Source of the DNA: a virus
Lineage: Duplodnaviria; Caudoviricetes
IMG/VR virus record: IMGVR_UViG_2863404153_000002
Location: 5,165-69,164 of that record
DNA length: 64,000 nucleotides
Direction: 5' to 3' (one strand)
Each line of letters opens with the position of its first letter. Position 1 is the first letter of the stretch. The notes under the pieces are model-generated. The model was not told where the DNA came from. It saw nothing but the letters and a program-made list of their open reading frames with translations, and made no database searches. A program made the translations under genes and the position numbers. Below are positions 18,394 through 64,000 of the stretch, in pieces.

Positions 18394-19053
18394 ATGACCG
18401 CCGCCTGCATCGTCGCCACCTGCCCGCGCGAACTCCGCGACTGGGAGGACGCCACCAGCCAGGTCATCTGCACGCCCTGCCACGACCGCGCCCGCAACAT
18501 CCTCCGCAGCATCCCCGCCGCCCTCACCGTCCTTCACGGATCGATGCATCGCGAACGCAGCGGGGAGAGCGGACGCGCCGGCACCCGGGAAGCGCCCCTG
18601 CCGTGCCGCACCGACGTCCTCAACCTCGTCGGACCGGCCGCCACCGGAACCGTCCACGACCCGAACGGCGACCAGATCGGACAGCAGCCCATCGCAGGCC
18701 TGCTCGGCAGCTGGGTACGGCTCGTCTGCGAAGAACGCCGGATCAACGGGCCCAGCCGGTACCGCGTCGAGGACTTGGCCGCCTGGCTCGCCTCCCAGCT
18801 CGGCTTCGCGGCGACCCAGCATTGGGGCGCTGAGCTGGTCAGCGAGCTGATCGACCTCGACCGCTCCCTGCGCGGGATCATGCAGATCGACGTCCGCACC
18901 CGCGCCGTACCCCGCCCCTGCCCGAACGACCGCTGCCAGAGGCTGGAGCTCACCCGCACAGACCACGACGCCTACACCCGCTGCAGCGCCTGCGGAACCG
19001 CCTGGACAGACGCCGAACTCAACCACGACGCCGAACGACGAGCCGCCGCATGA
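18394..19053 (+). CDS. Zn-binding phage protein (paralog of 31309..31959), possible late regulator
   Basis: CxxC at both ends, APLPCR motif; RBS AAGGAG. Confidence 0.75.
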   Translation: MTAACIVATCPRELRDWEDATSQVICTPCHDRARNILRSIPAALTVLHGSMHRERSGESGRAGTREAPLPCRTDVLNLVGPAATGTVHDPNGDQIGQQPIAGLLGSWVRLVCEERRINGPSRYRVEDLAAWLASQLGFAATQHWGAELVSELIDLDRSLRGIMQIDVRTRAVPRPCPNDRCQRLELTRTDHDAYTRCSACGTAWTDAELNHDAERRAAA

Positions 19054-19057
19054 CAGA

Positions 19058-19090
19058 GCGCCCCCGCCTCCCAAACGGAGGCGGGGGCGC
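19058..19090. terminator. Bidirectional hairpin terminator between convergent genes
   Basis: 14-bp stem GCGCCCCCGCCTCC / GGAGGCGGGGGCGC. Confidence 0.75.
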
Positions 19091-19104
19091 AGTCGTTTGC
19101 TGGG

Positions 19105-19518
19105 CTACTCGGCCAGGGCGTCGTCGAGGTACTCCTGCACCGGCTCGAACAGCCCATACGGCACGTAATCGGGGATCTCATCGAGGCTGACCCAGGCAAC
19201 GGCGTCCAGCTCGTCGGCGTCCGCGACGTGCGCCTCGCCCCCGACGACCTTGCACGCCGTGTAGCTCATGAGCCGCTTCGTCTTCGGGTGGACCCGCTCG
19301 CCGATCAGGTGCGACGCAGTGACGACGAGACCGGTCTCCTCGATCGTCTCCCGCACCGCCGCGGCCTCGGCAGTCTCACCGTCCTCGATCGCGCCAGCCG
19401 GAAACTGCCAGCTGAGCTCGCCCTCCTTCACGCGGCGGCGCACCATGAGCACCTTGCTTCCGTCCGTGATGATCGCGGCGGAGATGCCGGGCTTCTCGGT
19501 CGTGGTCTCGGTCGTCAT
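19105..19518 (-). CDS. Nudix hydrolase (type found in actinomycete conjugative elements, pSAM2 Pif-like)
   Basis: Nudix box GAIEDGETAEAAAVRETIEETG. Confidence 0.92.
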   Translation of the reverse strand: MTTETTTEKPGISAAIITDGSKVLMVRRRVKEGELSWQFPAGAIEDGETAEAAAVRETIEETGLVVTASHLIGERVHPKTKRLMSYTACKVVGGEAHVADADELDAVAWVSLDEIPDYVPYGLFEPVQEYLDDALAE

Positions 19519-20135
19519 GCGGCAACCTCCTCGAACGGTGGATAGTTCGAGATCTGGTGTGCGCGTTGTCCGGAGAATCCCAGCCGTTCGCCAACCTCGC
19601 GCCAGGTGAGCCCGCGGCCCTTCAGTCTGAGCACGATCTCTCGCGCCGCCGCCTTCTGTAGGAAGACGTGTCGCTTCTCTGCTTCGCAGACGGCCTTGTA
19701 TAGCTCCAGGGGATCGGCGATCGCTGCCAGAGTGGAGTCGAGGGTGGCGGCGAACTCCATGAGCGCGTCGAAAGCCGGGTGGTGATTAGGATCCGGCGGT
19801 GTAGCGAAAGCCTTAGGTTTCGACGTGGGCTTGGACTTCACTTTCCTCAGACTGATCTTTGGGCGGCTCCAGGGTTCGCCCTCGACAGCCCACTGGATGA
19901 GCCGGACCGGGTCACGGCGAAAGGTGAACCATTCGCCGTGCGATCGGAACTCCTTGAAGTAGCGATGAAGCTGGGTTTCCAGCTCACGGCCACCCGGGCA
20001 GGTCCAGAAGGCTTCGAGAGGCACGGGCGACATCCGCTGAATGTCGGCAAGCCTCTTCTGGAGGTTCCCTGTCGTCCCGATCTTCACGGTGTTGCTGCCG
20101 GGCGTACCGAGTATGTAGACGACTTCTCCGGTCAC
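19515..20135 (-). CDS. GIY-YIG (T5orf172-like) nuclease domain fused to a C-terminal HTH
   Basis: VYIL..VKIGTT..KRL..LETQLH..GEWF; C-terminal LTWREVGERLGFSGQRAHQI. Confidence 0.8.
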   Translation of the reverse strand: MTGEVVYILGTPGSNTVKIGTTGNLQKRLADIQRMSPVPLEAFWTCPGGRELETQLHRYFKEFRSHGEWFTFRRDPVRLIQWAVEGEPWSRPKISLRKVKSKPTSKPKAFATPPDPNHHPAFDALMEFAATLDSTLAAIADPLELYKAVCEAEKRHVFLQKAAAREIVLRLKGRGLTWREVGERLGFSGQRAHQISNYPPFEEVAA

Positions 20136-21622
20136 TTGGCCCCCTGCCCGTAGCTCCAGGTGTTGCCCGTGCCGCGGTACTCGGAGACGGGAATCGGCTG
20201 AACGCCTTCGCGCATCCGTGAGCGGTACAGCATGCCGTGCAGGTGGTCGACTTCGTGGGCGACGAGTCGGGCCATGCCCCTCTCGAAGATGGTGATGCGC
20301 TGCTGCCCGTCGATGTCGGTGTGCTCCACGCTGATCGCGAGGGGGCGGGGGACCTTGCCGCGGACGTCGAAGAAGCTCAGGCAGCCTTCGTACTGCTCGT
20401 CAGTCTCTCGTGACTCCTCGACGATGCGCGGGTTGAACAGGGTGATGGATTCACCGTCGGGGGACCGGACGATCGCGGCGGCCCGGTCGATGCCGATCTG
20501 TGTCGCTGCCACGCCCATTCCCTTGCCGAAGACGTGCACGGTGGAGGCCCGTTCGGCTGCGGAGATCAGTTCGGCGACGACCCGGCGCGCGTCCTCGGCC
20601 TCGCCAGGCAGGTCGAACGGTCGCGCGGTCTTGGTCAGGATCGGGTCGCCCTCCTGGACAATGCCGACCGCGCTCATCCTCTCGCTCGCGGTCGCTTCGG
20701 ACTCCAGTACGTGCAATGCATCCTCCTGGTTTGGGCGGGTTCGGAACTTCCATTCAAGCCGATACCGGGCGTGCAGCGGAGGGTCTTCAGTCGACCAGGA
20801 GAAGACGCGACGGCCGTCCTCCTCGGTGCGGCGGACCGCGGTACGGAACGGCATCGCCTCAGCGGTCATGCTCGTCTCCGTGCCCCACACGATCGGGTCC
20901 AGGTCGGCGGGGAAGTCGAGGCGAACGCTCATGCGCTGCGTCGGCAGACGAACCGCCCGCTGGAACCACGAGCCCCACTTCTCGTCCCCGACGGTGTAGC
21001 TGTACTCCAACCACACCGACTCGCCCGGGTACAGCGGGTACTGCCCGAAGATCAGCCACAACTCCTTGAACGCGTCGCGGTCGTGCTTCACCCGCCACGT
21101 CAGCGGCTCGCCGTCGATCGACGCGCTGAGGCCGATCTCCTCCCACGTCAGCGGGTTCTCGCGGTAGTGCTGATTCGACCGCTCGGGGTCTCCCGGATAA
21201 CGGTCGACGGAGATCCGGACCAGATAGCGGGTCACCGGGTCCGGGCTGTCGTTGTAGAGCCGGCGGCGCTGGGTGGCCCGGTACGTGCGGCCGTCGTAGC
21301 AGAGCGTCGTGTCCTCGTGCTCGACGATCAGGCTCGTCGCGTGGGACTCGTCGCCGTTCGGCGCCGGGTGAGTGGCTGGTGCCCTGCCGGTCGCCTCCAG
21401 GTCGCGGAAGGCTCGCCGCAGCGCGCCGCCAGCCCGGAGGGTGTCGTCGGCCTGCCGGGCGAACGCGGCGGACGGGGCCAGCTGCCCGCCCTCGACCTTG
21501 GACACGTAGGACGGCGTGTATCCGACCTTGCTGGCGAGCGCTGACTGCGAGAGGCCCCGCACGTCACGCCAGTACTTCAGCTCAGCGACGAACGCTTCTG
21601 CTGCTGCTTGCTGCTCCGGCAT
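20132..21622 (-). CDS. XRE-family HTH + uncharacterised beta-rich domain + peptide deformylase fusion
   Basis: N-terminal GLSQSALASKVGYTPSYVSKVE; PDF motifs GMGVAATQ, EGCLS, HEVDH all present. Confidence 0.9.
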   Translation of the reverse strand: MPEQQAAAEAFVAELKYWRDVRGLSQSALASKVGYTPSYVSKVEGGQLAPSAAFARQADDTLRAGGALRRAFRDLEATGRAPATHPAPNGDESHATSLIVEHEDTTLCYDGRTYRATQRRRLYNDSPDPVTRYLVRISVDRYPGDPERSNQHYRENPLTWEEIGLSASIDGEPLTWRVKHDRDAFKELWLIFGQYPLYPGESVWLEYSYTVGDEKWGSWFQRAVRLPTQRMSVRLDFPADLDPIVWGTETSMTAEAMPFRTAVRRTEEDGRRVFSWSTEDPPLHARYRLEWKFRTRPNQEDALHVLESEATASERMSAVGIVQEGDPILTKTARPFDLPGEAEDARRVVAELISAAERASTVHVFGKGMGVAATQIGIDRAAAIVRSPDGESITLFNPRIVEESRETDEQYEGCLSFFDVRGKVPRPLAISVEHTDIDGQQRITIFERGMARLVAHEVDHLHGMLYRSRMREGVQPIPVSEYRGTGNTWSYGQGAK

Positions 21623-21765
21623 GGCTCCCCTGCCTGTGCCTGTGATTGAGGTGTGAGTGATCGGCTCTCAGGCTGCCGTCACATCCCGTACCAGCGGTCT
21701 TCTTGCGGGAGAGGCGGGGTAGCCCGCCGCACCCGAGGAGTGATCGTGACGGCAATGCCGAGAGG

Positions 21766-21960
21766 CTACGAGGGCGCTACTGGCGGCTTGTCGGGCCGCT
21801 TCGGGAGTTCGTCTGTCTCATGCGTGAGCCAGCGGAAGAACGCGTTGATGTGCGAGTTCAGGGTGGAGTCCACCTCGGCGACGGCGGCCTTGGCGCGCTC
21901 AAGAAGTTCGGGCTCAGGGCGGTATGTCTTCGCTGGGATTCTGTGGACTCCATGGGGCAT
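21766..21960 (-). CDS. Ribbon-helix-helix-like small regulator
   Basis: KTYRPEPELLERAKAAV..LNSHINAFFRW pattern; divergent from transfer operon. Confidence 0.6.
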   Translation of the reverse strand: MPHGVHRIPAKTYRPEPELLERAKAAVAEVDSTLNSHINAFFRWLTHETDELPKRPDKPPVAPS

Positions 21961-21976
21961 GGCGAAATCTTCGCAT

Positions 21977-22044
21977 GGTGGATTGCCACCGGTCCATAGG
22001 CTGGGCTACGGTGGTGGAGTTCCACCACGGGGCTGCCTTCCACC
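21977..22044. promoter_or_regulatory. Tandem palindromic operators GGTGGA-N2-(G/T)CCACC
   Basis: GGTGGATTGCCACC at 21977; GTGGTGGAGTTCCACCAC at 22011; half-site TTCCACC near 22038. Confidence 0.6.
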
Positions 22045-22140
22045 AGCAACCGTGCGCACAAATGAATGTGGCCCTGCCCTGGGCTTCCACACACCAGGAC
22101 AGGACCGGCACGACCTCCCTGACGTAACCAAGGAGTCGGC

Positions 22141-22596
22141 ATGACCAACCATACCGGTGCGCCCATGCGCGCCTATCCTCCCGCTGAGCGGGCGCTGAGC
22201 CTCACCCTCGACGCCGAGGTCATGACCGACCTCGACACCGGCGCCTTGTCGCTGGTTGCGTCGACGGATCCGCAGTTGTCGGACCTGGCCGAGGTGTCGG
22301 CGGCCCGCCTGCGGGAGCTGATCGCGGCGGCCCGTACCGGTCTGGTCGCGTTCGAGCGGCTGGCTGACGAGCACGAGGCCCGCGAGTCCCTCCAGGCGCT
22401 GCTGGCCGAGCACGGTCTGCGCGTCGAGGAGTGGAACACCGGCAGCCTCGACCCGCGGCTCCGTCACCACCTCCGCGCCGTGTACGACCCGACCGAGGGC
22501 GATGGCCGCACCGTCATCGTCCCCGCCGGCCAGGACCCCATCGAGCGCCTCACCGCCGTCCGCCAGCTGATCGCGGGCCTCGGGGGTGCGCTGTGA
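22141..22596 (+). CDS. Hypothetical protein of transfer island
   Basis: RBS AAGGAG; first gene of a coupled operon. Confidence 0.75.
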   Translation: MTNHTGAPMRAYPPAERALSLTLDAEVMTDLDTGALSLVASTDPQLSDLAEVSAARLRELIAAARTGLVAFERLADEHEARESLQALLAEHGLRVEEWNTGSLDPRLRHHLRAVYDPTEGDGRTVIVPAGQDPIERLTAVRQLIAGLGGAL

Positions 22597-24958: not shown

Positions 24959-26356
24959 ATGACTGCCAGCCCGTCGAAGGTGAACGGCACTGCCCGTCCG
25001 CCCGCCGTGCCCGTGCTTGGGGACTGGCAGCCCATAGAGGCCACCCCCACCCAGCCGACCGACATCTCCACCGAACCCCAGCCGCCCGTTCAAGGCGACA
25101 GCGAGATGGTGGCGCAGGCCAAGGCCGAGGCAATCCGTGCTGCGGCGTGGGCCGAGTCCGAGGAGCGCCGCCTTGCCGCCGAAGCGGAGAAGGAAGCCGC
25201 GCTCAGGCGTGCCGATGCCGAAGCGGAAGCGATCCGCGCCAAGGCTGTCGAGGAGAACCGGCGGATTCAGCTCGCCAACGACCGCGCCGAGCGGAAGGCC
25301 CGTGAGGAAGAGGCGGCATCTGAGGCCCGCATCGCCGAATCCAACCGGCGGCGCGCCGACGCCGACCGGGCGCGCGAGGAGGAGGCGCGCAAAGCCGAGG
25401 AGCGGCAGCAGGCCGAAGCCCTGGCCGCCGCCGAGGTCACCGAGGCCGAGGACCGGTGGCGCGGGTACGCCCGCAGCTTCTACATCGTCTGTGCCATCGT
25501 CGCCTTGCCCGTACAGGTCGCCGCGTTCTACGACCCCAGCGCCCTCTGGCTGATGGCCGCACCGCTCATGCTCGAAGGCGGCGCCTGGGTCGTCCTCAAG
25601 GGGGCTGCGGCTGCGGTCGCGTCCCGCCGCCCGCACTGGCACTACCGGCTGATCGCCTGGCTGCTTGCGTTCATCGCCGCCGGCATCAACCTGTGGCACG
25701 GCCTCACCGCCTTCGACCCGGCCACCGCCATCGGTACCGCGTTCGCATCGATCGCCGGCCCCGGCGTGTGGGACCTCCACGAGCACGGCCGCATCCGCAA
25801 GCGCGACGGTGTCCCCACCCGCCGGGAGCGCAAGGCGGCCGAGAAGGAAGCGAAGCGGATCGCCGCGGAGAAGGCCGCGGAGGAGAAGCGGCGCGCGGCC
25901 GACAAGAAGACCGCCGACAAGGCCGCCGAGGAGAAGGCGGCGCAACTGACGGAGCTCCGCAAGGCGCACTTCCCGAAGGTTTGGGAGCACGCTGTGAAGC
26001 TGGCGGCGGACCTCGGGGAGACGGACCCGAACGCCGTCTGGGAGCGCGCCAAGCTCGACGTCGAGGGCGCCAAGCCCGGCGAGTCCGCCGACGTTCTCCG
26101 CATGCGGAACGCAGCCACCGCCAGGGTCGACGCGGCCCGCCAGAACAAGCCCGTGAACACCGTCAGCAAGAACGTGAATGCCCAGCGTGTTCCACAAACG
26201 ATGCGCGGTACCGGGCGGGGCTCGAAGACAGGTCCGAAGGTGCGCGGGGTGCGCCGCTCGGGAGACACCCCGAAGTACCACCCAGTCACCGGCCAGCTCG
26301 CTTCTGAGACGAAGCGCCAGTCCCTCGCCAGCACCCGCCAGAAGGACCCGTCATGA
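24959..26356 (+). CDS. Spd-like (plasmid spread) coiled-coil multi-pass membrane protein
   Basis: Long E/A/R coiled coil, about 4 TM helices, second coiled coil; coupled to traB. Confidence 0.75.
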   Translation: MTASPSKVNGTARPPAVPVLGDWQPIEATPTQPTDISTEPQPPVQGDSEMVAQAKAEAIRAAAWAESEERRLAAEAEKEAALRRADAEAEAIRAKAVEENRRIQLANDRAERKAREEEAASEARIAESNRRRADADRAREEEARKAEERQQAEALAAAEVTEAEDRWRGYARSFYIVCAIVALPVQVAAFYDPSALWLMAAPLMLEGGAWVVLKGAAAAVASRRPHWHYRLIAWLLAFIAAGINLWHGLTAFDPATAIGTAFASIAGPGVWDLHEHGRIRKRDGVPTRRERKAAEKEAKRIAAEKAAEEKRRAADKKTADKAAEEKAAQLTELRKAHFPKVWEHAVKLAADLGETDPNAVWERAKLDVEGAKPGESADVLRMRNAATARVDAARQNKPVNTVSKNVNAQRVPQTMRGTGRGSKTGPKVRGVRRSGDTPKYHPVTGQLASETKRQSLASTRQKDPS

Positions 26357-28356
26357 CGACCGAGATGCCCCCCGAGTTCCCCGCCGACTGGGACCTCGAC
26401 AAGGTGATCCCCTCGGCCGGCGAGCTGCACGTGCCCGACGACCTGTCCGGCGAGGACATCGCGCCCGGCATCGTCGCCCCCTACGAGCCGCGGCCGGCCG
26501 TCCTGTCGAAGACCGGCTCCGCGACGATGGTCGCCGCGGCGGCCACCGGCCGAGCCTGCGGACTCACCGCCCGCTGGTTCTTCACCGGCGCCAGCGCCGT
26601 CGGATTCCTCGGCTGGCGCTACGTCCGCGCCCACGACCTCCAAGAAGTCCTCGGCGGCATGTCGAAGGGCTCCGACTGGAACAAGGTCGACATCGTCCGC
26701 AAGAAGCGGTGGCGATTCCTCGGCTGGGCGGCCGGCATCACCGCGGGCCTCAACCTCGCCGGCTGGTGGGCGCTCGTGAAGTACGCAGGCATGACCGCAG
26801 CCGACTGGTCCTGGAAGATCCCCCCCGCCCTGACCGCCGCCGCTGCGGTCGCCGCCGTCACCCTCTACGGCCGCTACCGCGCGAACAGCCCCGGCATCGC
26901 CCCGGAGATGCTCGTCGCCGATCACGACAACCCGGAATCCGACGAGCCGTTCCCGCTGGCCCTCGCCACGTCCCCGAGCATGGTTGAGGACTGTGTGTCC
27001 AGGGCGCTCGCCTGGGAGGGCATCGGCACCCGGCAGATCCGGGCGCTCGGTTTCCGCGGGAAGTTCTGGGAGATCGACGTGATCCTCAAGGGTTCGACTC
27101 CCGGCAAGGTCAACGCGGTCTGTGACCAGCTGGACGCCCACTTCAACATCAAGCAGGGCGGCACCCTCATCGACCCTGACCCTGCCGAGTCCGCGCACAT
27201 CATGTTGCGCCTCGTCACCGGCAACCCGTTCGACGACATGCCCAAGCCGACCGTGCACGCCCCGAACAGCCTGGACATCTCCGACCCGCACAACTTCGGC
27301 CGCTGCATGGACGGCAGCCCCCTCGACCTCGTCCTCGAAGGGCAGCGCATCCTCGTCATCGGCGTGTCCGGTTCCGCTAAGTCCACCGGCGTCCTCCGTG
27401 ACCTGGCCGAGGTCATCACCGCCTGCCACAACGCCATCGCCATCGAGATGGACCCGGTCAAGGATGGGCTGCGCGAGTTCGAAGGTGTCATGGCCGTCCC
27501 CCCGATCAGGGGTACCAGGGCCTGCGAGCAGTGGCTTGAGTACCTGGTCAAGATGGCTGGCGGTCGCAACGTCATCCGCAACCGGCTCGGTATGGGCGAC
27601 ACGTGGGTTGCCACTAAGGAGCGCCCCGCCATCTTCGCGCTCGTCGACGAGTTCATCTTCCTCAGTCAGCGCGCGAAGGAGCTGTTCATCGAACTGCTCC
27701 GCATCGGCAAGCAGTCCGGGATCTACGTGGTGGCCGCCGGGCAGGACGCCACCTCTGACGCCATGGGCGACGCCATCGCCGACACCTTCACGACCCGCAT
27801 CATGCTCGCTGCCCGCTGGGACGACATCCGGCTCGTTCTCGGGCAGGGGGCTGCCGCGAAGGGCTTCCGCCCCGACCGTCTCGTCCCCGCCTTGAACAGG
27901 GACATCAAGAACGACGCCGGCCAGTCGTATATCAAGGGTCCCGGCCTGGACCGGCCGCTTCTGTACGGGTGGAACGAGCACAGCAACCACGGGATCAAGC
28001 AAGCCGTCGCCGACCGCAAGGCCGCGGGCCGGCCCTGGTTTGACCGCGACACCCTCGCCACCGCCGGTCTCCTCCACCTCGCCGATGGCGGGACCGGGGA
28101 GCGGATCGTTGGCGACCGGCAGATCGCGGCGGACGCCGTGGTGGTCATGGCCGAGGCCGGCGTGGACCGGATGAAGACCGAGACCCTGGCCGAGCGGCTC
28201 GTCGACCACGCGCCCGACGTCTATGCCGACCTGACTGCCGCCGAGCTGCGCGCTCGGCTGAAGGAAGCCGGAGCGGGCTCACCGGTGCAGCTGGGGGAGT
28301 GCGAGGGCGAGCGGAACCCCCGCGGCTACAAGCTCGAAGCGCTGACCGTCTTGTAG
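26353..28356 (+). CDS. traB: TraB/TraSA-type FtsK-SpoIIIE conjugative DNA translocase
   Basis: N-terminal TM segments, Walker A-like GVSGSAKS, Walker B FALVDEF, AGQ motif, C-terminal wHTH ending RGY. Confidence 0.85.
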   Translation: MTTEMPPEFPADWDLDKVIPSAGELHVPDDLSGEDIAPGIVAPYEPRPAVLSKTGSATMVAAAATGRACGLTARWFFTGASAVGFLGWRYVRAHDLQEVLGGMSKGSDWNKVDIVRKKRWRFLGWAAGITAGLNLAGWWALVKYAGMTAADWSWKIPPALTAAAAVAAVTLYGRYRANSPGIAPEMLVADHDNPESDEPFPLALATSPSMVEDCVSRALAWEGIGTRQIRALGFRGKFWEIDVILKGSTPGKVNAVCDQLDAHFNIKQGGTLIDPDPAESAHIMLRLVTGNPFDDMPKPTVHAPNSLDISDPHNFGRCMDGSPLDLVLEGQRILVIGVSGSAKSTGVLRDLAEVITACHNAIAIEMDPVKDGLREFEGVMAVPPIRGTRACEQWLEYLVKMAGGRNVIRNRLGMGDTWVATKERPAIFALVDEFIFLSQRAKELFIELLRIGKQSGIYVVAAGQDATSDAMGDAIADTFTTRIMLAARWDDIRLVLGQGAAAKGFRPDRLVPALNRDIKNDAGQSYIKGPGLDRPLLYGWNEHSNHGIKQAVADRKAAGRPWFDRDTLATAGLLHLADGGTGERIVGDRQIAADAVVVMAEAGVDRMKTETLAERLVDHAPDVYADLTAAELRARLKEAGAGSPVQLGECEGERNPRGYKLEALTVL

Positions 28357-35420: not shown

Positions 35421-35918
35421 ATGGGCATGGCTGGTGTAGGTCCCCCGCCGAAGGATCCGAAAAGGCGGGCGCGCGCGAACAAGGACCCGGTGGCGCAGAC
35501 GATTCTCCGGTTCGAGAAGGCCGAGGCTCCAGAGCTTCCGGACTTCCGGATCAACTCTGGCGAGGACGGGATCGTCGAGTTCGTGTGGCCGGAGCGGACG
35601 CGGGAGTGGTGGGCCACGTGGGTCGCCTCCCCGCAGGCAGAGCACTTCAGCAGCACGGACTGGGAGTTCCTTCTCGACACGGCGCTGATCCACGCGAAGG
35701 TGTGGGCGGGTGATCTGTCGGCGGCGCCGGAACTGCGGCTGCGGGTGGCGAAGTTCGGGGCGACGATGGAGGACCGGGCTCGTCTGCGTATGCAGTTCGC
35801 TGCGGCGGACGAGGCGGACGCAAAGCGGCCGGAGGCCGGCGCGAACGCGAGGGCCCGGTATGGAACACTGCACGCGCTGCCGTCCGCCAAGGACAAGAAG
35901 GCTTCTGGGGATTCCTGA
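35421..35918 (+). CDS. terS: Terminase small subunit
   Basis: GPPPK start, ELRLRVAKFGATMEDRARLR; directly before terL. Confidence 0.85.
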   Translation: MGMAGVGPPPKDPKRRARANKDPVAQTILRFEKAEAPELPDFRINSGEDGIVEFVWPERTREWWATWVASPQAEHFSSTDWEFLLDTALIHAKVWAGDLSAAPELRLRVAKFGATMEDRARLRMQFAAADEADAKRPEAGANARARYGTLHALPSAKDKKASGDS

Positions 35919-37579
35919 TGCCGTGGCGCGGCCCTCAGTTCGAGGGTGAGCTGCCGACGCTGGGCTACGTGGTTCTGGACTGGATACTGGAGATGCTTGC
36001 TGCTCCGGACCGGCCGGAGTACGAGCCGTTCGTGCCGACCCGCGAGCAGGCCGAGTTCATCCTCCGGTTCTACGAGCTGCACCCGGCGACGGGCAAGCGG
36101 CGTATCCGCCGCGGCGTCCTGTCGCGGCCTCGCGGCTGGGGCAAGTCGCCCCTGCTGGCGGCCATCGCGTGTGCTGAGGCGCTCGGCCCGGTCGTCCCGA
36201 ATGGCTGGGATGCGAACGGCGAGCCGGTCGGTATGGGCTGGGAGCGGATCCGTACTCCGCTGGTGCAGGTGGCGGCGGTGTCGGAGGATCAGACGCAGAA
36301 CACGTGGGCGCCTCTGCTGGAGATGCTCCGGCTCGGCCCGGTGATCGATGAGTATCCAGGGCTGGAGCCGCTGGATACGTTCGTGAACCTGCCGCGCGGA
36401 AAGATCGATCAGGTCACCAGCTCGGCCACGTCCCGTAAGGGCAACAAGGCGCTGTTTGCGGTGCTGGACCAGACCGAGGAGTGGACGCCGAGCAATGGGG
36501 GTAAGCGGCTCGCGCAGGTAATGCGGTCGAACGCGGCGAAGATCGGCGGGACGACGCTGGAGTCTCCGAACGCCTACATCCCCGGCATGGGGTCGGTGGC
36601 CGAGGAGACCGCGGCGTTCGCCAAGGCAATAGCCGAGGGCCGTACCCGTGAGGACGGTCTGCTGTGGGATCACCGCGAGGCTCCTCCGGAGACGGACCCG
36701 ACGGAACGCGAGTCTCTGGTGGCCGGCCTTCGGTACGCCTACGGCGACAGCTCGGACCATGAGGCCGGGTGTGTGCTGCATTCGCCGCCGTGCCCGCCAG
36801 GCTGGTCTCCGATCGACCGGCTGGTGGGCGACTTCTGGGATACGTCGAATGATCCGCAGGTGATGCGGTCGGACTTCCTGAACCAGATCACTCACGCGAG
36901 CGACTCGTGGTTGTCGCAGCCGGAGTGGGCTGGGTGCTCGGATGCGGCCCGGTTGGTCGCGGACGGGGACACGATCGTTCTCGGGTTCGATGGTTCCCGG
37001 GCGCGGGCCCGCGGTGTCACGGATGCGACAGCGCTGGTGGGTTGCCGGGTCTCGGACGGGCATTTGTTCCTGCTGGGCTGCTGGGAGCAGCCGGAGGGGC
37101 CGGCGGGTCAGGACTGGCGGGTGCCGGTGCTGGAGGTTCTGGCCGCGGTGGAGGAGGCGTTCTCTCGTTTCCGTGTGGTCGGCATGTATGCGGACCCGGC
37201 GAAGTGGGAGGGGCATGTCGCGGACTGGGAGGCCCGTTGGGGTTCGGGTCTGCAGGTGAAGGCGACGCGTGACCATCCGATTGAGTGGTGGATGACGGGC
37301 GGCCGGTCGAACTTGATCGTGCGTGCGTTGGAGAAGTTTCACTCTGCGGTCCTGGATCGGGAGTTGTCGCATGACGGGTCGAGCACCCTAGCCAGGCATG
37401 TGCTGAACGCCCGTCGGCGTAAGGGTCGGTCCGGGATCCAGATCATGAAGGAGCATCCGGACTCGGCACGCAAGATCGACGCTGCGATTGCGGGTGTGCT
37501 GGCGTGGCAGGCCCGGCTTGATGCGGTGGCCAAAGGGCTGGCCGAGCAGGAAGAGCCGATGGGCGGCTTCACGTTCTGA
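35918..37579 (+). CDS. terL: Terminase large subunit
   Basis: Walker A RPRGWGKS, LGFDGS, DATALV, KIDAAIA nuclease motifs. Confidence 0.93.
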   Translation: MPWRGPQFEGELPTLGYVVLDWILEMLAAPDRPEYEPFVPTREQAEFILRFYELHPATGKRRIRRGVLSRPRGWGKSPLLAAIACAEALGPVVPNGWDANGEPVGMGWERIRTPLVQVAAVSEDQTQNTWAPLLEMLRLGPVIDEYPGLEPLDTFVNLPRGKIDQVTSSATSRKGNKALFAVLDQTEEWTPSNGGKRLAQVMRSNAAKIGGTTLESPNAYIPGMGSVAEETAAFAKAIAEGRTREDGLLWDHREAPPETDPTERESLVAGLRYAYGDSSDHEAGCVLHSPPCPPGWSPIDRLVGDFWDTSNDPQVMRSDFLNQITHASDSWLSQPEWAGCSDAARLVADGDTIVLGFDGSRARARGVTDATALVGCRVSDGHLFLLGCWEQPEGPAGQDWRVPVLEVLAAVEEAFSRFRVVGMYADPAKWEGHVADWEARWGSGLQVKATRDHPIEWWMTGGRSNLIVRALEKFHSAVLDRELSHDGSSTLARHVLNARRRKGRSGIQIMKEHPDSARKIDAAIAGVLAWQARLDAVAKGLAEQEEPMGGFTF

Positions 37580-37600
37580 GCAGAAGCTGGGGGTGGGGCC

Positions 37601-39025
37601 GTGCTGGATGACACCCCGGGCACGCCGGACTGGTGGCTGCTGAGGCTGGGCCGCCGCTTGCGGGACCGCGGTAAGGATCTGGACCGCTGGTGGGACTACT
37701 ACAGCGGGAAGCATCCGCTGCCGTCGCTGCCGAAGAACGCGGCTGCCGCGTTTCTGGAGTTCCAGAGGAAGTCGCGGACGAATTTTTGCCGCCCGGTGGC
37801 GGACGCTCCGGTGCACCGCTTGCAGGTGCTGGGTGTGACGGATGCTGATGGCCGGGCGGACGATGACGCGCTGCGCTGGTGGCAGGCGAACAAGTTGGAC
37901 TCGCGGCAGAAGCTGCTGTATCGGACGGTGATGGCGCAGGCTCAGGCCTACGTCATCGTCGGCCCGCACCCCACCCGGGTTGAGCCGGACAAGGAGACTC
38001 CGTCGCCGCTGGTGACGGCGGAGCATCCACGGCAGGTGATCGTGGAATGCGATCCGGCGACGGGCGAGCGTGCCGCCGCGGTGAAGGCGTGGTGGGACGA
38101 CGTCTACCGGGTAGGCCGGGCGACGGTGTATCTCCCGAGCGGTCTGCAGCGGTATGTGACGCCTCAGCGTCGCGGTCCTGGCCAGTTGCCGTGGGGGCAG
38201 GAGTCGTGGGATCCGGACGGCGACTTCCAGGAGCATGATCTGGGAGCGGTGCCGGTGGTGCCGTTCGAATGTCGGCCGGACCTGATGGAGAGCCCGGTTC
38301 CGGAGTTCGATGGCGTGCTGGACATTCAGGACCGCATCAACATGGGCGTCCTGAACCGGATGACCGCCGCCCGGTACTCGGCGTTTCGGCAGGGCTTCGT
38401 GACAGGGCATAAGTTCCGGAAACGGTCCGATCCAGCTACCGGGCTGGAAGTGGTCGAGCAGCCGTTTGTTCCGTCTCCCTCAGCGCTGTGGGCGTCAGAG
38501 GGCGAGAACGTCAAGTTCGGGCAGCTGGATGCGACCGACCTGTCTGGGTTCTTGAAGGAGCACGAGTCGGATGTGCGCGACATGCTTGTCCTGTCGCACA
38601 CGCCGGCCTATTACTTCGCCTCCGACCTGGTGAACATCTCCGCCGACACGGTCAACGCCCTGGACGTCAACCACCTGGCGAAGGTGGGAGAGCACCAGGC
38701 CACGTTCGGGGAGTCGTGGGAGGACGTCCTTGCGCTGTGCGCCCGGCAGGCCGGGGTGGAGCGGGACTACTCGCAGTCGGAGGTGCGGTGGGCGGATCCG
38801 CGGCGCCTGAACCCGAGTGTGATCGCGGACGCGGCGACGAAGAAGCATGCGGTCGGCTATCCGTTGGCGATCCTCGCCGAGGAAATGGGCGAGTCGCCGC
38901 AGCGGGTGCGCCGCATCACGTCCGAGGCTGCTGGCGCGGCGCTTCTGGCGAGTACAGTGCTGCCCGCCCCCACCCCCGCTCAGGCGTCGGCTCAGCCAGC
39001 AGCGCCTGACAGGACAGGGCTGTGA
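37601..39025 (+). CDS. Portal protein (SPP1 gp6-like)
   Basis: After terL; YYSGKH..TNFC..V..RL, IQDRIN motifs. Confidence 0.9.
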   Translation: MLDDTPGTPDWWLLRLGRRLRDRGKDLDRWWDYYSGKHPLPSLPKNAAAAFLEFQRKSRTNFCRPVADAPVHRLQVLGVTDADGRADDDALRWWQANKLDSRQKLLYRTVMAQAQAYVIVGPHPTRVEPDKETPSPLVTAEHPRQVIVECDPATGERAAAVKAWWDDVYRVGRATVYLPSGLQRYVTPQRRGPGQLPWGQESWDPDGDFQEHDLGAVPVVPFECRPDLMESPVPEFDGVLDIQDRINMGVLNRMTAARYSAFRQGFVTGHKFRKRSDPATGLEVVEQPFVPSPSALWASEGENVKFGQLDATDLSGFLKEHESDVRDMLVLSHTPAYYFASDLVNISADTVNALDVNHLAKVGEHQATFGESWEDVLALCARQAGVERDYSQSEVRWADPRRLNPSVIADAATKKHAVGYPLAILAEEMGESPQRVRRITSEAAGAALLASTVLPAPTPAQASAQPAAPDRTGL

Positions 39026-63688: not shown

Positions 63689-63766
63689 TGACCAGCAGCA
63701 ACAGCAAAGCCCCCGAGGTCGCGGGCCACGCCACCCCGGGGGCAGCCGACGATCGGAGCGTCGACG

Positions 63767-64000
63767 ATGAGCAACCCTACGGACCCCGACCGCCCAGCCG
63801 AAAGCGGCGCGGACGCCATACCCGCCAGCCGGCCGAGCCCCGTGCAGGCCGCACAGAACGCCTACGCCCGCCATGTCGGCGGGTGCGGCAAATGCCGGGA
63901 CGTCGACCGCGATCGGTGCGGTGACGGGCAGCGACTGTGGCGGGCGTGGGAGGGCGCGTGTGACGACGCCTACCGGCAGTTGTCCGAACACACGCCCTGA
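63767..64000 (+). CDS. Small Cys/His protein divergent from GntR
   Basis: H..GC.KC....C motif. Confidence 0.6.
   Translation: MSNPTDPDRPAESGADAIPASRPSPVQAAQNAYARHVGGCGKCRDVDRDRCGDGQRLWRAWEGACDDAYRQLSEHTP

What the first reader, a model, noticed from the sequence alone, without database searches (positions are those of the whole stretch)
20132..21622. XRE-HTH / unknown beta-domain / peptide deformylase fusion in the position of the conjugation repressor
Seen: N-terminal XRE HTH, a ~200-aa beta-rich domain I cannot assign, and a C-terminal PDF with all three motifs intact (GMGVAATQ, EGCLS, HEVDH). It heads the operon where KorSA sits in pSAM2-type elements. Established: PDF binds N-formyl-Met peptides and is the target of actinonin, made by actinomycetes. 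Inference: a one-component regulator sensing formylated peptides, translation stress or PDF inhibitors to control transfer or lysogeny, or an enzyme-coupled defence protein. I know of no characterised system of this kind.
Basis: partly seen in the sequence, partly recalled or inferred. Interest (0 to 1): 0.85.

Follow-up and report, generated by a model that had tools for sequence, protein, structure and literature searches.

The report
Self-regulating deformylase-regulator fusion on a prophage
A Streptomyces prophage carries a real, widely conserved gene that joins a DNA-binding switch, an aminopeptidase-like beta domain and an intact peptide deformylase; it seems to control only its own small operon, which makes it a candidate sensor of formyl-peptides or deformylase-inhibiting antibiotics, not a conjugation or lysogeny repressor.

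Summary
ORF 20132-21622(-) encodes 496 aa: XRE HTH, a ~200-aa beta domain and a PDF with all three catalytic motifs. It is not a sequencing error: relatives number 1857, and all 120 listed carry both the HTH and PDF families.

The setting was misread. The window is a complete 69-kb tailed provirus with its own integrase/repressor/Cro-like module at the left end.

New here:
- The middle domain has the fold of the N-terminal domain of M1 aminopeptidases (Z 10-15).
- Three invariant TCAC repeats, 11 and 10 nt apart, precede the gene in 34 loci. They co-vary with an HTH residue, are missing from relatives without the HTH, and occur once per host genome. The protein therefore looks like a single-target autoregulator.
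- The Mid-PDF module also sits behind trypsin and DUF4062 (NADase) heads, and Mid alone behind a STAND NTPase, as in conflict systems.
- Host genomes hold 2-5 better-scoring PDFs. The actinonin-contacting Arg is kept.

Best reading (0.45): an autoregulated, ligand-responsive accessory deformylase carried as mobile-element cargo. No function was tested.

This scan noted the same architecture on another genome (e1-4420640) and read it similarly.

The parts
20132..21622 (-). HTH-Mid-PDF fusion gene (496 aa, P0001), stop codon included
   Evidence: Open frame; GC3 0.88; Pfam HTH_31 and Pep_deformylase; full-length relatives at 64-92% identity
21407..21592 (-). XRE-type HTH domain (residues 11-72); recognition helix SYVSKVEGG at residues 38-46 (21485-21511)
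   Evidence: Pfam HTH_31 E 5.7e-12 and HTH_3 E 4.4e-06; five helices in the AF2 model; helix invariant across loci and the LSQ/LSR residue co-varies with the operator
20723..21340 (-). Middle beta-sandwich domain (residues 95-300), same fold as the N-terminal domain of M1 aminopeptidases; conserved KWGSWFQRAVRLPT at residues 215-228 (20939-20980)
   Evidence: AF2 pLDDT 96.4, pTM 0.90; VIA-align Z 14.8 to ribophorin I, 13.7 to 3kd4, 10-12.7 to the N-domains of M1 aminopeptidases and LTA4H; Foldseek E about 1e-7; Pfam DUF3857 only 15.1 bits, below its cut-off
20135..20701 (-). Peptide deformylase domain (residues 308-496); motif I at 20498-20521, motif II at 20372-20389, motif III at 20234-20257; Arg equivalent to E. 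coli Arg97 at residue 421
   Evidence: Pfam 113.7 bits; Foldseek to solved PDFs E 3e-12, TMt 0.76-0.84; PDB profile hits E about 5e-27; motif positions; motifs intact in 134 of 142 relatives
21625..21684 (-). Conserved cis element just upstream of the start codon: TGTGAC, a -10-like CAGCCT (TAGGCT in other genera), three TCAC-core direct repeats 11 and 10 nt apart (21636-21660), then GGGGAG as RBS. Proposed operator and promoter for autoregulation
   Evidence: 34-locus alignment with invariant TCA/CAC columns while flanks differ; no RNA structure; unique in the window; one copy in each of 5 host genomes, reversed control 0; absent upstream of HTH-less relatives; co-varies with the HTH
21766..21960 (-). 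Small ORF P0122 (64 aa) upstream on the same strand; possibly a separate small DNA-binding protein
   Evidence: ORF and translation; conserved at 59-90% identity upstream of the fusion gene in 6 other loci; no Pfam or PHROG match
19515..20135 (-). T5orf172/MUG113 (GIY-YIG-like) gene whose start overlaps the fusion gene's stop by 4 nt; probably a homing-endonuclease-type insertion
   Evidence: Pfam MUG113 E 7.9e-13, T5orf172 E 3e-09; the same slot holds GIY-YIG, Endo VII, HNH or T5orf172 genes in other loci; GC3 0.75, lower than its neighbours; weak PADLOC PDC-S57 match
19105..19518 (-). NUDIX hydrolase, last gene of the reverse-strand cassette and a recurrent downstream partner
   Evidence: Pfam NUDIX E 6.1e-23; PADLOC candidate PDC-S07 E 1.3e-16; a NUDIX gene lies downstream of the fusion in 8 other loci, directly after it in 4
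21863..22025 (.). GGTGGA(N1-2)TCCACC palindromes (exact copies at 21863-21873 and 22014-22025, degenerate ones at about 21943 and 21976) in and upstream of P0122. They go with P0122, not with the fusion gene
   Evidence: Only two exact copies in the window, both here; in other loci they occur only where P0122 is present

Best explanation
The gene is a self-contained, self-regulating accessory peptide deformylase, comparable to a trigger enzyme or one-component sensor, and mobile elements carry it as cargo.

Proposed mechanism:
- The XRE HTH binds three TCAC direct repeats, one helical turn apart, that lie between a -10-like box and the ribosome-binding site of its own gene. In this way it represses its own small operon. 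In this prophage that operon is fusion gene -> T5orf172 nuclease (probably a homing-endonuclease insertion) -> NUDIX hydrolase.
- The middle beta-sandwich and the PDF domain form one unit that binds peptide N-termini. The arrangement resembles an M1 aminopeptidase, where an N-domain precedes a HEXXH catalytic domain. The metal and catalytic site is intact and the actinonin-contacting arginine is kept.
- Occupancy of that site would change DNA binding and de-repress the operon. Candidate ligands are N-formyl peptides, which accumulate when cellular deformylase capacity falls, or actinonin-type PDF inhibitors. The result would be more deformylase and more of the co-transcribed cargo.

Shown here: the architecture, the intact motifs, the fold of each domain, the conserved and co-varying operator, its uniqueness per genome, carriage on mobile elements, and accessory status next to the host PDFs.

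Inferred: that the HTH binds the repeats, that it represses, that the enzyme is active, and that a ligand switches it.
For: Architecture and conservation. All three PDF motifs are intact in 134 of 142 near-full-length relatives. The updated motifs of Lamberioux 2025 are all met and the Arg97 equivalent is kept. Fold matches to solved PDFs, including actinonin complexes.

Operator: 34 loci from Streptomyces to an Acidimicrobiales MAG share invariant TCAC cores 11 and 10 nt apart just before the RBS, while the upstream context is unrelated. There is no RNA structure. The element is unique in the window and has exactly one copy in each of five host genomes of 7.6-11.9 Mb, with 0 hits for the reversed control. 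It is absent upstream of the trypsin-headed and DUF4062-headed relatives. Proteins with LSQ pair with TCACTCA repeats and those with LSR pair with TCACGG/GC repeats; Lentzea L032 breaks clade identity in the expected direction.

Accessory status: host genomes carry 2-5 other PDFs scoring 140-159 bits, against 103-117 bits for the fused one. NCBIfam equivalog cut-offs are not reached.

Mobile carriage: complete provirus, 10 IMG/VR proviruses, a small integrative element in Kitasatospora, and an integrase within 20 kb in 3 of 5 non-Streptomyces genomes (P about 0.002).

Middle domain fold. A natural split into HTH-Mid plus a separate PDF gene occurs in L054. A methionine-aminopeptidase-family gene (weak M24 hit) follows the fusion in L059.

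Biological precedent: PDF inhibitors are ecologically relevant and mobile accessory PDFs protect against them (PMC12690207). PDF inhibition induces a Vibrio prophage through an unknown sensor (PMC12157366).
Against: No experiment or expression data support any step.
- No consensus sigma-70 promoter was found by the simple scan, so the promoter assignment rests on a -10-like hexamer only.
- XRE proteins usually bind inverted repeats, and three direct repeats are unusual.
- The HTH/operator covariation is essentially one phylogenetic split plus one extra case.
- The relative placement of Mid and PDF in the full model is uncertain (pTM 0.60) and could not be tested.
- If the only aim were inhibitor resistance, one might expect the Tyr signature of Def2-type PDFs, which is absent.
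- The same Mid-PDF module sits behind NADase-type and protease heads. That fits a pure sensor in a defence system better than a metabolic enzyme.
- Many relatives have HTH-Mid without any PDF, so the regulator can work without the enzyme.
Confidence: 0.45

Rival explanations
1. Mid-PDF is a dedicated sensor module of an actinomycete conflict or anti-phage system, and the N-terminal domain is the interchangeable output. In this version the output is transcriptional: when the sensor detects a trigger (formyl-peptide accumulation, a phage protein N-terminus or a PDF inhibitor), the HTH releases the operon and the downstream NUDIX and/or nuclease act as effectors. The deformylase chemistry would serve recognition or signal reset, not housekeeping.
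For: The module is found as Trypsin_2-Mid-PDF, DUF4062-Mid-PDF and nSTAND3-Mid-IMPase, and as DUF4062-?-Mid. The DUF4062-headed protein P0129 is 56% identical to the query across Mid-PDF, as close as HTH-headed orthologues from other genera. The trypsin-headed gene is followed by a Trypco1 gene, a partner defined in conflict systems by Kaur et al. 2020 (PMC7159879). DUF4062 is reported as an NADase immune effector (bioRxiv 10.64898/2026.09.04.749371). A separate HTH-Mid gene lies two genes from the trypsin-Mid-PDF gene, and another lies near nSTAND-TPR and TIR genes. The downstream NUDIX matches PADLOC candidate PDC-S07 (E 1.3e-16) and the T5orf172 gene weakly matches PDC-S57. The cassette is a reverse-strand island inside the prophage.
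Against: No PADLOC model matches the fusion beyond a generic HTH. The downstream slot is empty in many loci and otherwise holds the classical free-standing homing-endonuclease families, so no constant effector exists. Every bacterial nascent chain starts with formyl-Met, so formyl-peptides are not an obvious non-self signal. No phage-challenge data exist.
Confidence: 0.27
2. It is an ordinary phage auxiliary deformylase with simple negative autoregulation. The HTH only sets the dose of a PDF that helps process phage or lysogen proteins. No ligand sensing is involved, and the middle domain is a spacer or oligomerisation domain.
For: Stand-alone PDFs are common in phages: 109 phage records match the PDF part and phrog_2890 matches at E 1.5e-24. 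The best sequence-level PDB match, 3uwa, covers only the PDF region. The catalytic motifs are intact. The operator evidence shows autoregulation only.
Against: This does not explain why the middle domain is conserved with invariant residues. It does not explain why Mid-PDF is re-used behind effector-type heads, or why HTH-Mid proteins without PDF are more numerous than the fusion. No full-length match exists in the sequenced-phage collection.
Confidence: 0.15
3. One reading: it is the repressor of the divergent transfer-like operon (a KorSA analogue) or a lysogeny or induction switch of the element, coupling PDF inhibition to transfer or prophage induction.
For: In about 8 Streptomyces loci the gene lies divergent from an operon that contains a DUF2637-like gene and an FtsK/TraB-like gene. 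PDF inhibitors induce a Vibrio prophage through an unidentified, SOS-independent sensor (PMC12157366). Large repressors are known in Streptomyces phages (my knowledge of phiC31).
Against: The TCAC operator occurs only in front of the fusion gene, not at the divergent promoter or anywhere else in the window or in host genomes. A small ORF and its own palindromes lie between the two promoters. The provirus has an integrase, a phrog_12831 repressor and a Cro-like gene at its left end. The fusion also occurs where no transfer operon is present, for example Kitasatospora behind a GntR gene, and L058 and L059. It is XRE-type, not GntR-type.
Confidence: 0.08

Closest known systems
Accessory, mobile-element-borne peptide deformylases (Def2 of Vibrio cholerae, integron PDF cassettes, BGC-linked OrdE; Lamberioux 2025 PMC12690207, Chen 2025 PMC12157366)
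   Same: An extra PDF copy next to the host's own PDFs. Carried on mobile DNA. Catalytic motifs intact.
   Different: Those are stand-alone enzymes of about 170 aa. This one is fused to an XRE HTH and a 200-aa beta domain. It keeps the actinonin-contacting Arg97 equivalent instead of the Tyr resistance signature. Neither paper mentions such a fusion.
Phage-encoded stand-alone PDFs (phrog_2890; PDB 3uwa)
   Same: PDF carried by a tailed phage or prophage. The PDF domain matches phrog_2890 and its best PDB match by sequence profile is 3uwa.
   Different: No sequenced phage in the INPHARED collection encodes the full fusion; matches cover only 29-35% of the query at about 30-35% identity.
Bifunctional enzyme-repressors ('trigger enzymes'): PutA, BirA, NadR, RbkR (my knowledge; discussed in PMC5397151)
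   Same: A DNA-binding domain fused to an enzyme, with a single or very small regulon that includes its own gene. Ligand occupancy of the enzyme site is expected to set DNA binding.
   Different: No homology to any of them. The enzyme here acts in protein N-terminal maturation. The ligand switch is not shown. The unit is mobile, not part of a metabolic operon.
XRE HTH plus HEXXH metalloprotease modules of mobile elements (ImmR/ImmA, COG2856, IrrE/DdrO; Makarova 2009 PMC2701414)
   Same: An XRE-type HTH combined with a HEXXH metallohydrolase on prophages and integrative elements.
   Different: The hydrolase here is a PDF fold, not COG2856/M78; no such Pfam hit was found. There is no evidence of repressor cleavage. 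An extra beta domain lies between the two.
M1 aminopeptidases / LTA4 hydrolase (N-terminal beta domain followed by a HEXXH catalytic domain) and DUF3857 proteins (PDB 3kd4)
   Same: The middle domain shares the fold of their N-terminal domain (Z 10-13.7, 150-170 residues aligned). It likewise precedes a HEXXH hydrolase that acts on peptide N-termini.
   Different: Sequence identity is only 6-19%. Pfam DUF3857 is below its cut-off. The catalytic domain is a PDF, not thermolysin-like. Whether the two domains pack together was not testable.
KorSA of pSAM2 (GntR-family transfer repressor of AICEs; Actinomycete ICE review PMC2440964)
   Same: A regulator gene lying divergent from genes that include an FtsK/TraB-like translocase.
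   Different: Different HTH family. The element is a tailed provirus. The operator is only at its own promoter. In Kitasatospora a separate GntR gene is present next to the fusion.

Membership tests
Peptide deformylase (PF01327) | Pfam model above the gathering score | tested here: met
   113.7 bits against a cut-off of 22.8, residues 321-472
Peptide deformylase (PF01327) | Three catalytic motifs (hydrophobic-G-hydrophobic-AAxQ, EGCLS-hydrophobic, HExxH-hydrophobic-xG as updated in PMC12690207) | tested here: met
   GMGVAATQ 368-375, EGCLSF 412-417, HEVDHLHG 456-463; conserved in 134 of 142 relatives
Peptide deformylase (PF01327) | PDF fold | tested here: met
   Foldseek to solved PDFs E 3e-12, TM by target 0.76-0.84
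Peptide deformylase (PF01327) | Equivalog of housekeeping Def (NCBIfam curated cut-offs) | tested here: not met
   Best is 96 bits against a cut-off of 125 (NF001159); TIGR00079 gives 88.7 against 103.95. Host genomes have 2-5 higher-scoring PDFs
Peptide deformylase (PF01327) | Deformylase activity on N-formyl-Met peptides | not testable with these tools
   Needs an enzyme assay or complementation of a def-fmt mutant
Def2-type actinonin-insensitive accessory PDF | Arg97 replaced by Tyr (PMC12690207) | tested here: not met
   The sequence EGCLSFFDVR keeps Arg five residues after the motif II Ser, at residue 421. The family consensus also has Arg
XRE-family HTH regulator (PF13560/PF01381) | HTH domain above the gathering score | tested here: met
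   HTH_31 46.2 bits against 27; HTH_3 27.1 bits against 23
XRE-family HTH regulator (PF13560/PF01381) | A cognate operator near its own promoter | tested here: met
   Conserved triple TCAC repeat in 34 loci, co-varying with the HTH, unique per genome. Physical binding was not tested
pSAM2-type KorSA transfer repressor | GntR-family protein of an AICE that controls the transfer genes | tested here: not met
   XRE, not GntR. The element is a complete tailed provirus. No operator copy at the divergent promoter
Prophage master (CI-type) repressor | Sits in the integrase-proximal lysogeny switch and has operators at the early promoters | tested here: not met
   A separate integrase, phrog_12831 repressor and Cro-like module lies at the left end. 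The operator is only at the gene's own promoter
ImmA/IrrE (COG2856, Peptidase_M78) fused to XRE | M78-type HEXXH peptidase domain | tested here: not met
   No such Pfam match at E up to 1; the HEXXH belongs to a PDF fold
M1 aminopeptidase N-terminal domain / DUF3857 | Sequence-family membership | tested here: not met
   DUF3857 15.1 bits against a cut-off of 24.6. No PDB sequence hit in the Mid region
M1 aminopeptidase N-terminal domain / DUF3857 | Shared fold | tested here: met
   Z 10-14.8, rmsd 2.9-3.8 A over 141-177 residues; Foldseek E about 1e-7
Known anti-phage defence systems (PADLOC-DB 2.0) | Match of the fusion protein to a system component model | tested here: not met
   Only generic HTH models matched (HTH_VI, capH, RmrA; E 3e-06 to 9e-04)
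Trigger enzymes (enzyme-repressor fusions such as PutA, BirA, NadR) | Ligand or substrate occupancy switches DNA binding | not testable with these tools
   Needs EMSA or a reporter with and without actinonin or formyl-peptides

The most novel reading that the evidence does not exclude
Mid-PDF is a sensor of formyl-peptides or PDF inhibitors that actinomycete mobile elements and immune systems plug into different outputs: an XRE HTH, a NADase-type DUF4062 domain or a trypsin-like protease (the middle domain alone also follows a STAND NTPase). In the prophage it would link translation stress caused by actinonin-type antibiotics, or by infection, directly to gene expression. That would be a bacterial counterpart of formyl-peptide sensing. 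It would also be a concrete candidate for the unknown, SOS-independent sensor class implied by the finding that PDF inhibitors induce prophages.
Probability: 0.27. Interest if true: 0.85.

Novelty: new variant of a known kind. Interest (0 to 1): 0.62.

Why it matters
PDF inhibitors are natural weapons. Actinonin comes from Streptomyces, and related compounds were recently found in Vibrio and Xenorhabdus. Two 2025 studies show that mobile accessory PDFs protect against them and that PDF inhibition can induce a prophage through an unknown sensor.

A prophage-borne protein that physically joins a PDF active site to a DNA-binding domain, with a defined 60-bp operator and a one-gene regulon, is a simple and testable system for asking whether bacteria or phages read out deformylase occupancy.

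The re-use of the same Mid-PDF module behind an NADase-type domain and a protease domain suggests that a whole group of unstudied actinomycete conflict proteins may share this input. The operator and protein pair could also serve as a compact inducible switch if it responds to actinonin.

Tried and rejected
1. RNA evidence. No listed holder of the locus is an RNA run. Three RNA-seq runs with the same species label gave 0 laid reads. This is no test; the strain may lack the prophage.
The 'atlas' fold library is not installed. The ESM Atlas feature search of the Mid domain gave only unnamed actinomycete clusters.
3. Structured RNA leader: RNAalifold predicts 0 pairs on the 34-locus alignment. 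Rejected in favour of a linear DNA motif.
4. The GGTGGA-N-TCCACC palindromes as the operator of the fusion: rejected. In other loci they occur only where the small ORF P0122 is present.
5. P0122 as a ribbon-helix-helix protein: no Pfam or PHROG match. This remains a guess from the sequence pattern.
6. Simple sigma-70 promoter and terminator scan of 19000-22300: nothing found.
7. T5orf172 as a functional partner: judged unlikely. The slot holds GIY-YIG, Endo VII, HNH or nothing in other loci.
8. Full-length relatives in sequenced phages: none.
9. Further regulon members in host genomes: none with either the three-repeat or the two-repeat pattern.
10. The more distant HTH-Mid relatives (L009, L060, L061) do not carry the TCAC repeats, so nothing can be said about their operators.
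11. Papers on DUF4062 and STAND sensors do not mention PDF.
Full report
**1. The observation**

The ORF at 20132-21622 on the minus strand is open for 496 codons. Its third-position GC is 0.88, typical of real genes in this 69% GC DNA. Pfam places an XRE-type HTH (HTH_31, E 5.7e-12) at residues 11-72. It places a peptide deformylase domain at 321-472 (E 8e-33, 113.7 bits against a cut-off of 22.8).

The fusion is not an artefact.
- 1857 proteins match. All 120 listed carry PF13560 and PF01327 at 64-92% identity, and their sources mostly name them as Streptomyces, Kitasatospora or Streptacidiphilus.
- The gene lies in 10 IMG/VR proviruses.
- Relatives were found in 38 GTDB species genomes. Named sources include Lentzea, Saccharothrix, Amycolatopsis, Kibdelosporangium, Crossiella, Actinosynnema, a record labelled Rhodococcus rhodnii, and an Acidimicrobiales MAG.
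- All three catalytic motifs are intact in 134 of 142 near-full-length relatives.

**2. The setting is a prophage, not a pSAM2-type element**

The window is bases 5165-69164 of a 69,164-bp IMG/VR provirus that CheckV rates as complete.

The left end, which the window lacks, holds a lysogeny module: a tyrosine integrase, a gene matching phrog_12831 'transcriptional repressor', and a divergent Cro-like HTH gene. Plus-strand replication genes follow: DUF5131, a beta-clamp-like gene, AAA_24, methylases and DnaB.

The finding belongs to a three-gene island on the reverse strand: fusion gene, then T5orf172, then NUDIX. After it the plus strand resumes with small genes, a DUF2637-like gene and an FtsK/TraB-like gene. 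Terminase, portal and tail genes come later.

So the prophage already has a conventional switch elsewhere. The fusion gene is an internal, oppositely oriented cassette.

**3. Anatomy of the protein**

AlphaFold2 with a 51-sequence alignment gives a confident model (mean pLDDT 91.2). It has three domains separated by disordered linkers at 82-94 and 300-307. The pTM of 0.60 means the relative placement of the domains is not settled.

The C-terminal domain matches solved PDFs, including actinonin complexes (Foldseek E 3e-12, TM by target 0.76-0.84). By sequence profile its best PDB match is 3uwa.

Modelled alone, the middle domain (residues 95-300) scores pLDDT 96.4 and pTM 0.90. It has a clear fold assignment:

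| Match | Z |
|---|---|
| Ribophorin I lumenal domain | 14.6-14.8 |
| DUF3857 protein 3kd4 | 13.7 |
| lpg2210 (4g2a) | 12.8 |
| N-terminal domains of M1 aminopeptidases and LTA4 hydrolase | 10-12.7 |

These alignments cover 141-177 residues at 2.9-3.8 A. Foldseek agrees (E about 1e-7). Sequence identity is only 6-19%, and Pfam DUF3857 is below its cut-off. This is therefore likeness at the fold level, not family membership.

In M1 enzymes this domain precedes a HEXXH catalytic domain that acts on peptide N-termini. Here it precedes a HEXXH deformylase that also acts on peptide N-termini. The parallel is my inference.

**4. A cis element that travels with the gene**

I aligned the ~85 nt upstream of the start codon in 34 loci. 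The block shared by all is a -10-like hexamer (TAGGCT, or CAGNCT in Streptomyces), then three TCAC cores 11 and 10 nt apart, then the ribosome-binding site. A TGTGAC/TGTGCC motif precedes the hexamer in most loci. The TCA/CAC columns are invariant in all 34, while the sequence further upstream is unrelated between loci. In the window the block is at 21625-21684.

Evidence that it is the operator of the HTH:
- It is not an RNA structure; RNAalifold predicts 0 pairs.
- It is unique in the window.
- In five whole host genomes of 7.6-11.9 Mb the three-repeat pattern, and a looser two-repeat pattern, each occur exactly once, in front of the fusion gene. The reversed control gives no hits.
- It is absent upstream of the relatives that lack the HTH.
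- It co-varies with the protein. The recognition helix SY(V/I)SK(V/I)E is constant, as are the TCAC cores. Proteins with Gln in 'LSQ' before helix 2 pair with TCACTCA repeats. Those with Arg pair with TCACGG/GC. Lentzea L032 is otherwise of the Arg-clade type but has Gln and TCACTCAC repeats.

I conclude that the HTH most likely binds these repeats and that the protein regulates its own operon and nothing else detectable. The position between the -10-like box and the RBS suggests repression. Both binding and its direction are inferences. The simple promoter scan found no consensus sigma-70 promoter.

The separate GGTGGA-N-TCCACC palindromes at 21863-22025 go with the small upstream ORF P0122, not with the fusion gene.

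**5. Neighbours**

In the Streptomyces loci the fusion gene stays 71-91% identical to the query while its neighbours reshuffle.

The slot directly downstream often overlaps the stop codon by 4 nt. It holds GIY-YIG (6 loci), T5orf172 (5), NUDIX (4 directly; 8 other loci in all), Endo VII, HNH, or nothing. These nuclease families are the usual free-standing homing endonucleases of phages (my knowledge). I therefore read the T5orf172 gene here as an insertion next to a conserved target, not as a partner. NUDIX is the only recurrent partner, and it matches the PADLOC candidate PDC-S07.

Other settings:
- Kitasatospora: a small element with integrase, Xis, DUF3987 and GntR genes.
- L058: an island with Prim-Pol and a polymorphic toxin.
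- L059: the fusion is followed by a gene with a weak M24 (methionine aminopeptidase family) hit.
- Three of five non-Streptomyces genomes have an integrase hit within 20 kb (P about 0.002).

Host genomes carry 2-5 other PDFs that score higher on the Pfam model, and NCBIfam equivalog cut-offs are not reached. The fused PDF is therefore an accessory, divergent copy.

**6. Modularity**

An exhaustive search of 50%-identity representatives, followed by Pfam scans, shows that the middle domain is the constant part.

| Architecture | Example |
|---|---|
| HTH-Mid, about 300 aa, no PDF (the most common) | |
| HTH-Mid-PDF | this gene |
| Trypsin_2-Mid-PDF | P0190, P0150 |
| DUF4062-Mid-PDF | P0129, 56% identical across Mid-PDF |
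| DUF4062-?-Mid | P0245 |
| nSTAND3-Mid-inositol monophosphatase | P0220 |

- The trypsin-headed gene is followed by a Trypco1 gene. Kaur et al. 2020 defined Trypco1 as a partner in conflict systems.
- A separate HTH-Mid gene (32% identical) lies two genes away from it.
- DUF4062 has been reported as an NADase immune effector.
- In L054 the fusion is split into HTH-Mid and a separate PDF gene.

This pattern of interchangeable heads is typical of sensor-effector proteins in defence systems. It is the main argument that Mid-PDF senses something.

**7. Literature**

Two 2025 studies frame the biology. Accessory PDFs on mobile elements lower susceptibility to actinonin through an Arg97-to-Tyr change (PMC12690207). 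PDF inhibitors induce a Vibrio prophage independently of SOS through an unknown sensor (PMC12157366). Neither mentions an HTH-PDF fusion, and further searches found none.

The fusion keeps the Arg97 equivalent (EGCLSFFDVR). It should therefore still bind actinonin-type ligands and does not have the resistant signature.

**8. Interpretation**

- Best reading (0.45): a self-contained, autoregulated accessory deformylase whose DNA binding is set by occupancy of the Mid-PDF site. The ligand would be formyl-peptides or PDF inhibitors. It works like the enzyme-repressor fusions PutA, BirA and NadR, without being related to them.
- Main rival (0.27): Mid-PDF is purely a sensor of a conflict system, and here its output is transcription of the downstream cargo.
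- A plain phage auxiliary PDF with dose control only (0.15) does not explain the conserved middle domain or the head swaps.

**9. Novelty and limits**

The parts are known kinds: XRE regulator, accessory PDF, M1-N-like domain. The idea of an enzyme-regulator fusion is also known. The combination, its operator and the re-use of Mid-PDF behind effector heads are undescribed in the literature I could search. I rate it a new variant of a known kind.

This scan had already noted the same architecture on another genome (e1-4420640) and read it as a sensing module. My evidence was gathered independently and agrees. It adds the operator, the fold assignment and the prophage context.

Nothing here is experimental. 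Expression data could not be obtained, and domain-domain docking could not be tested.

Noticed in passing
window 24959-28356 with 35918-39025: A DUF2637-like membrane protein (weak hit) and an FtsK/TraB-like translocase (phrog_12531 E 1e-64; NCBIfam plasmid_TraB only 23 bits) sit inside a complete tailed provirus with terminase and portal. The same pair lies divergent from the fusion gene in about 8 other Streptomyces loci.
   Followed up: partly
window 21766-21960 (-) and 21863-22025: A conserved 64-aa ORF (P0122) with GGTGGA(N1-2)TCCACC palindromes inside and upstream of it. In other loci the ORF and the palindromes occur together (L017, L020, L029). The sequence pattern suggests a small ribbon-helix-helix-type repressor with its own operators, but no family matched.
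   Followed up: partly
window 63738-63834 (-): ARAGORN reports a 97-nt tRNA-like gene with a four-base anticodon (cggc) about 200 nt from the right end of the provirus. It may be the integration-site tRNA or an att remnant, or an unusual tRNA.
   Followed up: no
L009:279-4608: Metagenomic locus with HTH-Mid (302 aa), a HAD hydrolase, Trypsin_2-Mid-PDF (654 aa) and Trypco1. Two proteins that share the Mid domain sit side by side, which suggests Mid-Mid or regulator-effector coupling.
   Followed up: partly
L054:8001-9448 (also L049): Split form of the fusion: the HTH-Mid ORF ends and a separate 190-aa PDF ORF starts 19 nt before its stop. This is either a natural two-gene version or a frameshift.
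   Followed up: partly
L059:2475-4947: In the most distant full-length relative (41% identity) the fusion gene is followed by a gene with a weak Peptidase_M24 (methionine aminopeptidase family) hit. That would be the next enzyme in N-terminal Met excision.
   Followed up: no
L058:11709-12518 and L061:7248-8201: An alpha/beta-hydrolase gene (Abhydrolase_1) lies directly downstream of an HTH-Mid-PDF gene in L058 and of an HTH-Mid gene in L061, in unrelated contexts. L061 also lies next to contractile-sheath and tube genes and to an nSTAND-TPR plus TIR pair.
   Followed up: no
window 19515-20135 (-): The T5orf172 gene has lower GC3 (0.75) than its neighbours (0.88-0.92) and carries a weak Sigma70_r4-like C-terminal HTH (19.4 bits, below the cut-off). 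This fits a recently inserted homing-endonuclease-type gene.
   Followed up: partly
L038 and L039: The loci labelled Kibdelosporangium aridum and Rhodococcus rhodnii have identical upstream sequence and identical protein N-termini. This suggests very recent transfer or a mislabelled or contaminated assembly.
   Followed up: no
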